Source: Moorena sp. SIO1F2
Lineage (GTDB): Bacteria > Cyanobacteriota > Cyanobacteriia > Cyanobacteriales > Coleofasciculaceae
NCBI RefSeq assembly: GCF_010672755.1
Contig: NZ_JAAHFV010000136.1
Coordinates: 1-15,248, forward strand
DNA: 15,248 nt
Direction: 5' to 3'
Shown: piece by piece, positions 8,938-11,576 of the stretch
Position numbering within the stretch: the stretch's first letter is position 1
How the letters are laid out: the number at the start of each line of letters is the position of its first letter
Notes under the pieces: generated by a model
What the model saw: the letters and a program-made list of their open reading frames with translations, nothing else
Told to the model about the DNA's origin: nothing
Database searches by the model: none
Made by a program: the position numbers and the translations under genes

Positions 8938-9813
8938 ATGACTACAACTGAGCGTAAAACAGAGAATAAAATGGAAGTGCCTAGGACAACTAGTGAAGTT
9001 ATTCGCATCAAACCTCAACAGTTTATTCATGTGCTAGACAACAACACCGGTGTTACCCGACTGGAGGTTGGTCCTCAAACCATTACCCTTCGCGATCACG
9101 AGCGGCTGATCTTAAAACCTGAACCGATGATTATTGTGCCGCCTCGGTATTATTGTGTGGTTGCTAATCCGTTACTCCGGGATGAAGACGGTCAACCCAT
9201 TGCTGATCAGCATGGTCAAATTCGACTGCGCTACGGTGATCTGGAAATTCGTTTCGCGCAAGATCCGTTTCCCCTTTATCCAAACGAGAAACTAGTAGGG
9301 GATGTCACCCAACTGGCAGTAGTCGAGACCAATCAAGCACTGCGTCTGAGAGCAATTCGGGATTTTACCGATACCGTTACGAGAATACTTGATGGAGAAA
9401 CCCAGACTGAAACAATTAACCGTTTAGCAGGTGATGAATGGCTATTTGAAGGACCTGGAACCTATATTCCCCGAGTGGAGGTGGAAGTAGTTGAGACAGT
9501 AACAGCTGAGGTGATTAAACCTAACCAAGCCTTACACCTGTTAGCACGGCAAAATTGCACCGATCGTCAAAGGAATAGACGTAGAGCAGGTGAAGAATGG
9601 CTCGTTAGAGAAGAAGGAGCCTATTTACCTGGTGTAGATGAAGAAGTAATTGGCATTATTAATGCTTACATTTTGACAGAACAAAAAGCATTACATCTCA
9701 AAGCTAAACGCACCTTTACTGATATTTTGGTCGTCAGCGTAAAGCTGGAGATGAATGGTTGGTCACCTTTGAAGATGCAGAAATTCATATTCCCGATGTT
9801 TATGAAGATGTAG
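8938..9813 (+). CDS. Major vault protein (MVP) homologue, N-terminal part (MVP repeat domains). Homology stays in this frame up to about 9722. A single -1 frameshift separates it from the next ORF.
   Basis: Aligns from memory with human MVP: [87 protein letters not shown]. After TD the sequence no longer resembles MVP. Confidence 0.85.
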   Translation: [291 protein letters not shown]

Positions 9814-11576
9814 TGGGAGAAGTCACGATTACTACCCTGAGCGATCACGAATGGTGTATTGTGGTTGACCCCATTGATGAGTCTGGTAAACCTCAGCTGG
9901 GTATGCGAGAGATTCGCCAGGGGAGAACATCATTTTTCTTGCATCCCGGTGAGTCCTTGGAGAATGGTATCCAAAACATCTATGTTCTCAGTGAGCTGGA
10001 AGCACTGTTGCTTCGAGCCAAAGAAGCTTTTAATGAGGGAGAAGGTGACCAGGTCATTACTCATCAACCAGGGGATTTATGGATGATTGCTGGGCCACAA
10101 GATTATATTCCCCGTGTGGAAGTGGAAGTGGTTGAGAAGCGTCAAGCCATTCCCCTCGATAAGAATGAAGGTATCTATGTGCGTAATATTCAGACTGGTG
10201 AACTCAAGCTGGTCGGTGGTCCTCAGGCTTATATGCTCACTCCCTATGAGAAGCTTTGGGAAAAAGAACTGCCATCGGTAGTTGAGGAACTGTTGATGCA
10301 AAAAATCGACCCATTGTCTGGACGTGGTCAGCATTCTTTAGCTGGGGGCGATCAGTCGGAGGGAAAATCAGGAGTGCGCCAACGTCTATCCCAACGGGAT
10401 AAGACTAGAGCAGTTGTGTTTCATATTCCTCAAAATGCTGCTGTGCAGCTCCATGACTATAAAAACAGAACTGCCAGAACTGTATTTGGACCGGACTTGG
10501 TGATGCTCGAACCAGATGAAGCCTTTACGGTACTTTCTTTATCAGGTAGCAAGCCCAAACGACCTAATGTCATCAAATCCTTAGCCTTATTACTCGGTCC
10601 TGATTTTATGACCGATATCTTTACCGTAGAGACAGCAGACCATACCAGATTGCAGCTACAGCTGTCCTATAACTGGTACTTTGATGTGGACAGACACGAT
10701 GAACAAACTGCAGCCAGACTGTTTCAAGTACCTGATTTTGTGGGAGATACTTGTAAAGCGATCGCATCCCGAGTGCGGGGTGCTGTAGCAGGGGAAAAAT
10801 TTGATGAATTTCACCGCAATTCAGCCCGGATTATCCGACTGGCGGTGTTTGGCACTGATGAAGAAGGTCATATTCGAGATGAATTTCGTTTCCGAGCCAA
10901 TAACCTAGTAATTACCAATATTGACATTCAGTCAGTGGAGCCAGTGGATGAAGAAACCTTAAGGAGCTTGCAAAAGTCAGTGCAGCTAGCGATTCAAATT
11001 ACCACTGATGCTCAAGAAGCTGCTGCACGCCAAGATGCGGAACGGATTGAGCAAGAAGCGAAAGCCAGGTTGGAAAGGCAAGTAATTTTGGATCAAAGTG
11101 CAGCAGAAGCAGAACGCAAAAAACTTCTAGAATTACAAGCAGAAAATATAGCCATTGAGTCTACAGGTCAGGCAACAGCAGAAGCAAGAGCTAAGGCTGA
11201 AGCGGCTCAGATTCAAGGACAATTAGCAGTTAACTTGGCTCAGCAAGACGCCGAGGCGGCTCGGATTCGCAATGAAATGGAGTTAGCTCAACTCAAAGCA
11301 CGTCAGGAAGCTGAATTAGCCCATCAACAGAGTTTGAATAACCTAGAGATTGCCAAAGCTGAGCGTATGGCTCACATTAAGAGTGAAGAATACCGACAGA
11401 AAGTAGAAGCAATTGGTCCTCAAACCATTCAAGCGATCGCACAAGCAGGTCCGGAAATGCAGGCAAGACTTCTAGAAGCACTTGGTATCCAGAGTGTTTT
11501 GATTACCGATGGCAAAAATCCCATCAATCTATTTGGTGCAGCTAATGGTCTGATTACTCCCCCAACTTCTAACTAA
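9759..11576 (+). CDS. Major vault protein homologue, C-terminal part (remaining MVP repeats, shoulder, cap-helix, cap-ring). MVP homology in this frame begins at 9723, directly after a TGA at 9720-9722.
   Basis: ...[126 protein letters not shown] and [44 protein letters not shown] are near-identical to eukaryotic MVP from memory. Combined length is about 879 aa. Confidence 0.85.
   Translation: [605 protein letters not shown]

What the first reader, a model, noticed from the sequence alone, without database searches (positions are those of the whole stretch)
8938..11576. Full-length, highly eukaryote-like major vault protein (MVP) gene in a cyanobacterial chromosomal context
The two overlapping ORFs together encode an ~880-aa protein collinear with eukaryotic MVP from N-terminal repeat 1 to the cap-ring. 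Long blocks are near-identical to human MVP from memory ([72 protein letters not shown].TI...A.AGPEMQ..LL..LG..S.LITDG..PINLF). Vaults are the largest eukaryotic ribonucleoprotein particles. MVP-like genes are only sporadically annotated in bacteria and, as far as I recall, none has been shown to assemble or function there. The gene sits between typical cyanobacterial genes (pentapeptide-repeat protein, Kef antiporter, rplC), and two HIP1 sites (GCGATCGC at about 10759 and 11436) lie inside the CDS. This argues against eukaryotic contamination and for a long-resident, horizontally acquired gene. Neighbours (a divergent pentapeptide-repeat protein and a small zinc-ribbon membrane protein downstream) could be partners, but this is speculative.
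Basis: partly seen in the sequence, partly recalled or inferred. Interest (0 to 1): 0.85.

Follow-up and report, generated by a model that had tools for sequence, protein, structure and literature searches.

The report
Frameshifted Moorena major vault protein gene
This is the Moorena (filamentous cyanobacterium) copy of the already published bacterial "major vault protein" gene, full length and 57% identical to human MVP, but here split by a one-base deletion that is either a sequencing error or a very recent inactivating mutation.

Summary
ORFs 8938-9813 and 9759-11576 are one gene split by loss of one T in a T-run (9725-9728). Restoring it gives an 879-aa protein with every MVP Pfam domain. 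It aligns end to end with human MVP (E = 8e-298, 57% identity).

The gene is not new. The window is a Moorena sequence, collinear with Moorena sp. SIO3I8 and M. producens 3L. The 3L ortholog (UniProt F4Y3B4, 879 aa) is the cyanobacterial MVP example in Daly et al. 2013 and Sokolskyi 2019. I found close homologs in about 70 species-level genomes.

Contamination is excluded by synteny, HIP1 enrichment and host-like codon use.

The frameshift occurs only in this sequence; all eight other Moorena loci read have T5. Changes specific to the window are still mostly synonymous (11:3), so the break is an artefact or very recent.

The proposed partner genes (pentapeptide protein, 73-aa zinc-ribbon protein) sit next to MVP only in Moorena. 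No neighbour is conserved across genera.

Modest additions from this work:
- The same eukaryote-like clade also occurs in Beggiatoaceae and Chloroflexi contigs that lack HIP1 (bacterial clade 99/100 NJ bootstrap).
- The vault waist residues and most of the NAD+/ADP-ribose pocket are conserved. The PARP4 site is not.

Assembly into vaults remains untested.

The parts
8938..9726 (+). MVP gene, 5' part in frame 1: codons 1-263, with a 17-residue N-terminal extension and roughly repeats R1-R4/5
   Evidence: ORF list and translation. Aligns to human MVP from residue 4. The N-terminal extension is conserved in 13 cyanobacterial homologs (consensus).
9725..9728 (+). Frameshift site: a T4 run where all other Moorena sequences have T5 (1-nt deletion)
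   Evidence: It is the only gap in the 2640-nt alignment with L001. T5 is found in L001, L003, L054, L056 and in L075, L076; L002 is identical to L001. It is the only frame-breaking indel in coding DNA across the 14.3-kb alignment with L003.
9727..9813 (+). Out-of-frame tail of ORF1: 28 unrelated residues, then a stop at 9811-9813
   Evidence: Translation compared with the repaired protein.
9726..11576 (+). MVP gene, 3' part in frame 0: codons 264-879 plus TAA at 11574-11576, covering the remaining repeats, shoulder, cap-helix and cap-ring
8989..10595 (+). Repeat-domain region: residues 18-553, aligned to human R1-R9
   Evidence: Pfam Vault x4, Vault_2 x2, Vault_3 and Vault_4. The alignment to human residues 4 to about 519 is continuous.
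10596..10949 (+). Shoulder (SPFH-like) domain, residues 554-671, carrying most of the conserved NAD+/ADP-ribose pocket residues
   Evidence: PF11978 4e-54 over residues 554-671. Pocket mapping, using residue identities from PMC12280208.
10950..11414 (+). Cap-helix domain, residues 672-826, about 155 residues of predicted helix
   Evidence: Gap-free alignment to the human cap-helix region. DSSP on the AF2 model gives H672-716 and H720-826, but the model is low-confidence.
11415..11573 (+). Cap-ring / C-terminal region, residues 827-879
   Evidence: Conserved EAIGP..TI..A.AGPEMQ..LL..LG..S.LITDG..PINLF block against human 795-849.
10758..10765 (.). HIP1 palindrome GCGATCGC inside the CDS
11433..11440 (.). 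HIP1 palindrome GCGATCGC inside the CDS

Best explanation
This is the Moorena ortholog of the known cyanobacterial major vault protein (MVP). It is a stand-alone, long-resident chromosomal gene. It encodes all the parts of eukaryotic MVP: nine N-terminal repeats, an SPFH-like shoulder, a cap-helix of about 155 residues and a cap-ring.

Shown here: identity, completeness, host-like composition, synteny within Moorena, purifying selection, and a single bacterial clade that spans three phyla of filamentous bacteria.

Inferred: the intact protein self-assembles, as eukaryotic MVP does, into a closed vault-like homo-oligomeric shell. Cap-helix bundling would drive assembly, and the R1 domains would pair two half-shells at the waist. 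The shoulder would bind an adenine dinucleotide or ADP-ribose-type ligand. There would be no PARP4-type passenger. I put this at roughly 0.55.

In this particular sequence the frame is broken by loss of one T in a T5 run. As written, only a 291-aa N-terminal fragment (263 genuine residues) would be made. Because the downstream part shows no decay, the break is either a homopolymer sequencing or assembly error, or a very recent loss-of-function mutation. I rate these about equally likely.
For: Identity and completeness:
- Pfam hits.
- Human MVP at E = 8e-298, end to end, with 57% identity.

Known family:
- 98% identical intact orthologs in M. producens 3L, Moorena sp. SIO3I8 and metagenomes.
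- The 3L protein F4Y3B4 (879 aa) is described in PMC3762200 and in bioRxiv 10.1101/872010.

Resident gene:
- Collinearity, HIP1, GC3 and RSCU.

Selection:
- 45 synonymous against 19 non-synonymous codon differences from L001.
- Window-specific changes are 11 synonymous to 3 non-synonymous. Downstream of the break they are 6 to 1.

Frameshift unique to this sequence.

Assembly-relevant conservation across 32 bacterial sequences:
- Waist residues R9, N22 and R42 are kept in 32/32 and D39 in 31/32.
- NAD-pocket residues K506, D521, F522, W545, P565 and K573 are kept in 32/32 and R437 in 29/32.

MVP alone is enough to build vaults, and human MVP forms vault-like particles in E. coli (PMC9778704 abstract).
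Against: - No experiment shows assembly of any bacterial MVP. None was found in the searchable literature.
- Some human waist residues differ (F6->E, I36->T, N40->H), as do two pocket residues (R511->I, H509->N). However, these are also the commonest states in the other, mostly eukaryote-type representatives.
- The AF2 model was poor (pLDDT 43) and adds nothing.
- The gene is broken here. It also appears interrupted in M. bouillonii PNG. This may mean it is dispensable, at least in culture.
- No cargo, RNA or partner gene was found.
Confidence: 0.85

Rival explanations
1. The frameshift is real. In this strain MVP is a freshly made pseudogene and has no function here. Only a 291-aa N-terminal fragment could be produced.
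For: - The deletion is present in the sequence as given.
- The rest of the window shows no other frame-breaking indel against its closest relative, so the assembly does not look error-ridden.
- Another Moorena genome (M. bouillonii PNG, L056) also has an interrupted MVP, which hints that the gene is dispensable.
Against: - All eight other Moorena loci read have T5.
- There are no further lesions. Window-specific substitutions downstream of the break are 6 synonymous to 1 non-synonymous. If real, the mutation is therefore very young.
- Homopolymer length is the classic sequencing error.
- The L056 interruption includes a 100-N scaffold gap and may be an assembly problem.
Confidence: 0.45
2. The two ORFs are joined in vivo by programmed -1 ribosomal frameshifting, or by transcriptional slippage, on the T-run.
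For: The shift needed is -1, and it falls on a run of T.
Against: - The site (GAT ATT TTG G) is not an X XXY YYZ slippery heptamer.
- Four T is far too short for efficient transcriptional slippage (established knowledge).
- Every relative encodes the protein in one frame with T5.
- No stimulatory structure was looked for, because conservation already argues against this reading.
Confidence: 0.02
3. The gene is eukaryotic contamination, or the contig is chimeric.
For: 57% identity to human MVP.
Against: - Both flanks are collinear in several independent Moorena assemblies.
- HIP1 sites lie inside the gene.
- GC3 and codon use are host-like.
- There are no introns.
- Dozens of cyanobacterial genomes, including complete chromosomes of 6-9 Mb, carry orthologs.
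Confidence: 0.01
4. The bacterial protein does not build closed vaults. Instead it acts as a TolA/SPFH-like scaffold at the membrane, in line with the 'colicin uptake protein' annotation, or as a soluble nucleotide sequestrator (Sokolskyi 2019).
For: - NCBI names the family 'colicin uptake protein'.
- The shoulder is an SPFH-type domain, and distant bacterial MVP-like proteins carry a band-7 domain (bioRxiv 10.1101/872010).
- No vault has been seen in bacteria.
Against: - There is no TM segment or signal peptide in the 879-aa sequence by inspection (no predictor was run), and the N-terminus aligns to the soluble R1 domain.
- No NCBIfam model supports the colicin/TolA name. The TolA resemblance is confined to the low-complexity coiled coil (PMC3762200 discussion).
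- All nine repeats and the half-vault pairing residues are kept under strong constraint. This is hard to explain if no closed two-half shell is formed.
Confidence: 0.15
5. MVP forms a functional module with the adjacent pentapeptide-repeat protein and the 73-aa zinc-ribbon membrane protein.
For: Adjacency in the window, conserved in all Moorena loci.
Against: - Neither protein is found within 8 kb of MVP in any of the roughly 65 non-Moorena loci.
- Clustering of all flanking ORFs shows no family shared beyond genus-level synteny.
- Both genes are on the opposite strand from MVP.
- The pentapeptide protein is an ordinary Alr5209-family member.
Confidence: 0.03

Closest known systems
Moorena (Lyngbya/Moorea) producens 3L MVP-like protein, UniProt F4Y3B4 (879 aa), with the other cyanobacterial MVPs in Daly et al. 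2013 (PMC3762200) and Sokolskyi 2019 (bioRxiv 10.1101/872010)
   Same: Same genus, same length, 98% identity and the same flanking genes (L054). The domain set is the same. It was already recognised as MVP by InterPro and in the literature, and already discussed as a product of HGT.
   Different: The window copy carries a 1-nt deletion (T5->T4) that splits the ORF. It also has a few mostly synonymous substitutions.
Eukaryotic major vault protein (human or rat MVP; PDB 11dr, 4v60, 7pkz)
   Same: - Collinear from R1 to the cap-ring, at 57% identity.
- Waist polar network R9/N22/D39/R42 is kept.
- Most NAD+/ADP-ribose pocket residues are kept.
- The cap-helix length is the same.
   Different: - It has a 14-residue longer N-terminus.
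- A loop of about 10 extra residues lies between R8 and R9 (window 10167-10215 region; deleted in some Moorena lineages).
- An insertion of about 11 residues lies in R3.
- Some shoulder-loop residues are missing relative to human.
- The PARP4-MINT contact residues are not kept (D214->G, R169->K).
- No vault RNA was found nearby.
- The host is a bacterium, and assembly is untested.
Distant bacterial MVP-like proteins (Saprospira, Microscilla, Myxococcales, Herpetosiphon), phage MVPs (bioRxiv 10.1101/2023.11.10.566534) and Asgard archaeal MVPs (PMC12962969)
   Same: They share the MVP-type repeats, an SPFH/shoulder domain and a coiled coil.
   Different: - They share only about 16-25% identity with cyanobacterial MVPs (PMC3762200).
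- They have a recognisable band-7 domain or fewer repeats (five in Asgard).
- The window protein belongs to the eukaryote-like clade, not to these.
TolA / 'colicin uptake protein' (the NCBI product name for this family)
   Same: An Ala/Glu/Lys/Gln-rich long helix resembling TolA domain II.
   Different: - No TolA N-terminal anchor or C-terminal domain III is evident, and neither Pfam nor NCBIfam gave any TolA-related hit.
- The name appears to be a misnomer arising from low-complexity similarity (PMC3762200).

Membership tests
Major vault protein (MVP) | N-terminal MVP repeat domains (Pfam Vault, Vault_2, Vault_3, Vault_4), nine in the solved structures | tested here: met
   All four repeat models score far above their cut-offs. 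The alignment to human residues 4-519 is continuous and has only short indels.
Major vault protein (MVP) | MVP shoulder (SPFH-like) domain, PF11978 | tested here: met
   E = 4.3e-54, profile positions 1-118 of 118, residues 554-671.
Major vault protein (MVP) | Long cap-helix (about 42 turns) followed by the conserved cap-ring segment | tested here: met
   Gap-free alignment to human 647-849, including the LITDG..PINLF motif. Predicted helix 672-826, from a low-confidence model.
Major vault protein (MVP) | Uninterrupted reading frame giving a polypeptide of about 850-900 aa | tested here: not met
   In this window a 1-nt deletion at 9725-9728 splits the gene. Orthologs in other Moorena genomes are intact.
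Major vault protein (MVP) | Self-assembly into a 78-mer (2 x 39) barrel | not testable with these tools
   The evidence is indirect only. Waist residues R9/N22/R42 are kept in 32/32 bacterial sequences and D39 in 31/32. No experimental report was found.
Vault ribonucleoprotein (complete particle) | Minor components: TEP1 (TROVE/NACHT/WD40), PARP4 and vault RNA | tested here: inconclusive
   - No vault RNA or other Rfam family is present in the window.
- No TEP1- or PARP-like gene lies within 8 kb in any of 72 loci.
- The PARP4-binding residues are not conserved.
- The rest of the genome could not be searched.
TolA / colicin uptake protein (NCBI product name) | N-terminal membrane anchor, TolA domain II helix and C-terminal TolA domain III | tested here: not met
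   There is no NCBIfam hit and no TolA Pfam hit at E<=1e-3. The entire length is accounted for by MVP domains.
Known anti-phage defence systems (PADLOC) | Match to a defence-system protein model | tested here: not met
   There are no PADLOC hits for MVP, the pentapeptide protein, the 73-aa protein or Kef.

The most novel reading that the evidence does not exclude
The eukaryote-like MVP clade is a genuine bacterial vault. On this reading it is a self-assembling cage that binds NAD+/ADP-ribose-type ligands. It has been exchanged specifically among large, filamentous, multicellular bacteria of three phyla: Cyanobacteria, Beggiatoaceae and Chloroflexi. It would then be either the donor of the eukaryotic vault or its closest living prokaryotic counterpart. 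That would offer a tractable bacterial system for finally working out what vaults do. My NJ tree places the bacterial clade among long-branched eukaryote-type sequences, but it cannot decide the direction of transfer.
Probability: 0.2. Interest if true: 0.75.

Novelty: already known. Interest (0 to 1): 0.3.

Why it matters
Vault function has been an open question for 40 years. A bacterial homolog 57% identical to human MVP, in organisms that lack PARP4-binding residues and any linked TEP1 or vault RNA, could reveal the core, ancestral role of the shell.

That opportunity is already recognised in the literature (2013, 2019, 2023, 2026) and does not arise from this window. This window adds only a broken allele.

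The useful by-products of this check are:
- The clade reaches Beggiatoaceae and Chloroflexi.
- It has no conserved gene partners.
- It keeps the waist residues and most NAD-pocket residues.

Together these sharpen which experiments to do.

Tried and rejected
- **AlphaFold2 on a 13-sequence alignment.** It gave mean pLDDT 42.8 and pTM 0.22. The model is too poor for fold search and was not used beyond its helix/strand pattern. Sequence homology to solved MVPs makes it unnecessary.
- **Rfam scan of the window at E<=1.** It returned only a chance miRNA hit and no vault or Y RNA.
- **PADLOC and NCBIfam.** Neither had a hit for MVP.
- **Promoter and terminator consensus scan of 8400-12100.** It found nothing above the shuffled expectation.
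- **Search for conserved neighbours.** tblastn of seven window neighbours against 72 loci and all-against-all clustering of 1244 flanking ORFs gave only genus-level synteny, generic two-component/PAS proteins and antisense artefacts. CHAT-domain proteins recur near MVP in a few lineages, but too rarely to count.
- **Exact-sequence look-ups.** The truncated 291-aa product and the window's Kef protein are not on record, so the source assembly could not be identified. Only the 73-aa protein matched, on a 2-kb Moorena MAG contig.
- **Sequence interrupting MVP in M. bouillonii PNG.** It had no Rfam hit and no copy in other loci.
- **Naming sequences for the tree.** Only 3 of the 10 nearest representatives carry an organism name. 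The tree therefore cannot settle the direction of transfer.
- **Programmed frameshifting.** Considered and rejected; see the rival explanations.
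Full report
**What is in the sequence**

The window holds two overlapping + strand ORFs, 8938..9813 (291 aa) and 9759..11576 (605 aa), in different frames. 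Their translations are the N-terminal and C-terminal parts of one protein.

The junction lies in a run of four T at 9725-9728. In frame 1 the text reads GAT ATT TTG GTC. With one more T it would read GAT ATT TTT GGT CGT CAG CGT AAA, that is ...[18 protein letters not shown].... Re-reading base 9726 gives an 879-aa product with no internal stop.

**Is it MVP?**

Yes, beyond doubt. The repaired protein hits Pfam Vault (5e-68, four stretches), Vault_2, Vault_3, Vault_4 and MVP_shoulder (4e-54, full profile). Against PDB sequences, the best match is human MVP (11dr_A) at E = 8.2e-298, with residues 18-873 aligned to chain residues 4-849. Rat MVP scores almost the same.

Identity to human is 57% over 835 aligned pairs. 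The alignment has only short indels. All nine repeats, the shoulder, the cap-helix and the cap-ring are therefore represented.

An AlphaFold2 run on a shallow alignment gave a poor model (pLDDT 43). I use it only to note a predicted helix at 672-826. That is the length expected for the cap-helix.

**Where the window comes from, and whether it is a chimera**

A scan of one genome per GTDB species with a profile of cyanobacterial MVPs returned 70 loci.

- The window is collinear at 97.9% identity over 14.3 kb with Moorena sp. SIO3I8 (L003).
- It is also collinear, at 89-97%, with M. producens 3L (L054).
- Metagenomic Moorena contigs share the same downstream order: a 73-aa gene, a Kef-type antiporter, then the S10 ribosomal protein operon.
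- The window's rplC starts at 14932.

HIP1 (GCGATCGC) occurs five times in the window, two of them inside MVP. The expectation is 0.04, and 0 of 200 shuffles reach 5. MVP has GC3 of 0.36, inside the 0.32-0.45 range of its neighbours. Its RSCU profile correlates best with kef (r = 0.73). Contamination and chimerism are excluded, and the gene is compositionally at home.

**The frameshift**

Every other Moorena sequence available has T5 at this site: L001 (with L002 identical to it), L003, L054, L056, L075 and L076. L003 and L054 have intact ORFs. In the alignment with L001 this is the only gap in 2640 nt. In the 14.3-kb alignment with L003 it is the only frame-breaking indel in coding DNA. The remaining indels are intergenic or are in-frame repeat-number changes in the radical-SAM gene.

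Codon differences from relatives are mostly synonymous (45:19, 49:14 and 57:12). Of the 14 codon changes found only in the window, 11 are synonymous. Downstream of the break the count is 6 synonymous to 1 non-synonymous.

The downstream 616 codons have therefore not drifted. The deletion is either a homopolymer sequencing or assembly error, or a very recent mutation. I cannot tell which without reads.

Programmed frameshifting is very unlikely. The site is not a slippery heptamer, the T-run is short, and all relatives use a single frame.

As written, the gene would yield 263 genuine residues plus 28 out-of-frame residues.

**How known is this?**

It is well known in silico.

- Daly et al. 2013 (PMC3762200) list three cyanobacterial MVPs. 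One is Lyngbya majuscula (now Moorena producens 3L) F4Y3B4: 879 aa, 54% identical to rat, annotated MVP by InterPro. They note the 'colicin uptake' misannotation and propose HGT from a eukaryote.
- Sokolskyi 2019 (bioRxiv 10.1101/872010) uses the same Moorea protein. That work argues for transfer from cyanobacteria to eukaryotes and notes a link with gliding bacteria.
- Later papers on phage MVPs and Asgard MVPs cite these.

My protein search found 2552 hits at E<=1e-20. The top 120 are all 75-98% identical proteins of about 860-930 aa, and wherever a source names an organism it is cyanobacterial apart from one MAG labelled Actinomycetota. They are named 'major vault protein' by JGI and 'colicin uptake protein' by NCBI. 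The window's gene is thus the ortholog of the published example.

No paper in the searchable library reports expression, purification or imaging of a bacterial MVP.

**Neighbours**

The pentapeptide-repeat gene (7564-8430, -) is an Alr5209-family member. The 73-aa CxxC...CxxC plus TM gene lies at 11677-11898 (-), and the Kef antiporter follows. All three are next to MVP only in the Moorena loci.

Clustering all ORFs within 8 kb of MVP in 72 loci produced no family shared beyond genus-level synteny. The only wider groupings are generic PAS/two-component proteins and antisense artefacts inside MVP itself. Even within Moorena, the region beyond the pentapeptide gene varies. It holds a radical-SAM gene here, a LanM lanthipeptide cluster in L001, and TerB plus an ABC transporter in L075.

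The partner idea is not supported. MVP behaves as a solitary gene.

CHAT-domain proteins lie near MVP in a few lineages. I record this as a weak lead only.

**Distribution and phylogeny**

Besides many filamentous cyanobacteria, the same eukaryote-like protein occurs elsewhere at 66-71% identity to Moorena. It is on contigs assigned to Beggiatoaceae (Thiomargarita, Ca. Parabeggiatoa, Thiotrichaceae). It is also on contigs assigned to Chloroflexi (Anaerolineae, Chloroflexaceae, Oscillochloris).

Those contigs have essentially no HIP1 (one site in a single Anaerolineales locus, none in the other nine), whereas every cyanobacterial locus checked does. An 'Actinomycetota' MAG locus has HIP1 at 0.75 per kb and is probably a mis-binned cyanobacterium. 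The non-cyanobacterial occurrences therefore look real.

I built an NJ tree from 32 bacterial sequences, human MVP and 43 full-length representatives taken from an exhaustive HMMER search (3734 hits at E<=1e-3).

- The bacterial clade is monophyletic in 99/100 bootstraps.
- Cyanobacteria are monophyletic in 100/100 and Beggiatoaceae in 100/100.
- Internal distances are short: mean 0.28 within the bacterial clade against 1.30 among the other sequences.
- Its nearest neighbour, P0138, is itself on a bacterial contig.

Only three representatives carry organism names: Anaeramoeba, a sponge and a ciliate. NJ is also a crude method. I therefore draw no conclusion on the direction of transfer.

I did not find the occurrence in Beggiatoaceae and Anaerolineae mentioned in the searchable literature. 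It is a modest extension. It fits the reported gene exchange between Beggiatoaceae and cyanobacteria (abstract of PMC5108060).

**How it probably works**

MVP alone builds the vault shell, and human MVP forms vault-like particles even in E. coli (PMC9778704). I took residue roles from the human cryo-EM study (PMC12280208) and mapped them onto the window protein and 32 bacterial sequences.

- **Waist.** The polar network that pairs the two half-vaults is kept: R9, N22 and R42 in 32/32 and D39 in 31/32.
- **NAD+/ADP-ribose pocket in the shoulder.** Ten of 13 residues are identical in the window. K506, D521, F522, W545, P565 and K573 are kept in 32/32 and R437 in 29/32. R511 is Ile and H509 is Asn, but these are also the commonest states in other MVPs.
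- **PARP4-MINT contact residues.** These are not kept (D214->G, R169->K). This is expected, because that interaction is vertebrate-specific.

Mean column identity of 83% among 13 cyanobacterial genera shows strong constraint along the whole length. That is what lateral packing in a closed shell would impose.

I therefore think the intact protein most likely forms a vault-like cage that binds an adenine nucleotide ligand. I put this at about 0.55. The main rival is a non-cage scaffold or sequestering role, at about 0.15. Its cargo and physiological role are unknown, and no RNA or protein partner is evident.

**Verdict**

The gene is an already described family member, indeed the ortholog of the literature's type example. 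In this sequence it is broken by a one-base homopolymer deletion of uncertain reality. The suggested partner genes are not supported.

Interest is low to moderate. It comes from the still untested question of whether bacteria make vaults, not from anything particular to this window.

Noticed in passing
window 6080-6285 (inside the radical-SAM/DUF2344 gene 4376-7210, +): The gene carries an in-frame low-complexity insert (QPANLQPANLQPTNL...QPSTLQPSTLQPSTL). It is built from short tandem DNA repeats: 7/8/15-nt CAACCTT-type units and a 39-nt unit. Copy number differs from Moorena sp. SIO3I8, which has a 24-nt extra block plus several unit changes.
   Followed up: partly
L056:9472-10100 (Moorena bouillonii PNG5-198): The MVP ortholog is interrupted by a 100-N scaffold gap followed by about 500 nt unrelated to MVP, including GC-rich hairpins. 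This leaves ORFs of 488 and 236 codons. There is no Rfam hit and no copy in the other loci. It may be a mobile-element insertion or an assembly artefact.
   Followed up: partly
window 10167-10215; L075 and L076: A Moorena lineage (protein P0002, 863 aa) has an in-frame 48-nt deletion. It removes 16 residues of the loop [19 protein letters not shown], which has no counterpart in human MVP. This marks the loop as dispensable.
   Followed up: partly
L044, L048, L052, L069, L070 (Beggiatoaceae); L045, L046, L049, L062, L065 (Chloroflexi): Eukaryote-like MVPs, 66-71% identical to Moorena's, lie on non-cyanobacterial contigs that have essentially no HIP1 (one site in L046 only). All the hosts are large filamentous bacteria. 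I did not find this reported in the searchable literature.
   Followed up: partly
L073:3169-4182; L029:4543-6585 and its Laspinema/Oscillatoria relatives (L035, L036, L051, L053): CHAT (caspase-like) domain proteins lie immediately upstream of MVP, or about 1.4 kb upstream, in a divergent high-GC lineage and in the Laspinema group. This may be chance, because CHAT proteins are abundant in filamentous cyanobacteria.
   Followed up: partly
L061 (MAG labelled Actinomycetota): The locus has HIP1 at 0.75 per kb, and its MVP is nested within the cyanobacterial clade. It is probably a mis-binned cyanobacterial contig.
   Followed up: partly
window 8431-8937: A 500-nt AT-rich (about 35% GC) divergent intergenic region lies between the pentapeptide gene and MVP. 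It contains a TAATCCT heptamer array (8581-8626). It is less conserved among Moorena (89-92%) than the flanking genes. No convincing promoter consensus was found.
   Followed up: partly
L001:1-9400, L075:190-5348, compared with window 1-7400: The region beyond the pentapeptide gene differs among closely related Moorena. It holds radical-SAM/STAS genes here, a LanM (DUF4135 + LANC_like) lanthipeptide cluster with Nif11-type precursor genes in L001/L002, and TerB plus an ABC transporter in L075. This looks like a local rearrangement hotspot.
   Followed up: no
window 11583-11690: Two short tandem repeats (16-nt x2.2 at 11583-11617 and 13-nt x2.5 at 11659-11690) lie between the convergent MVP and 73-aa genes. 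The 13-nt array runs into the 3' end of the 73-aa gene, and its copy number differs from L003 by one unit.
   Followed up: no
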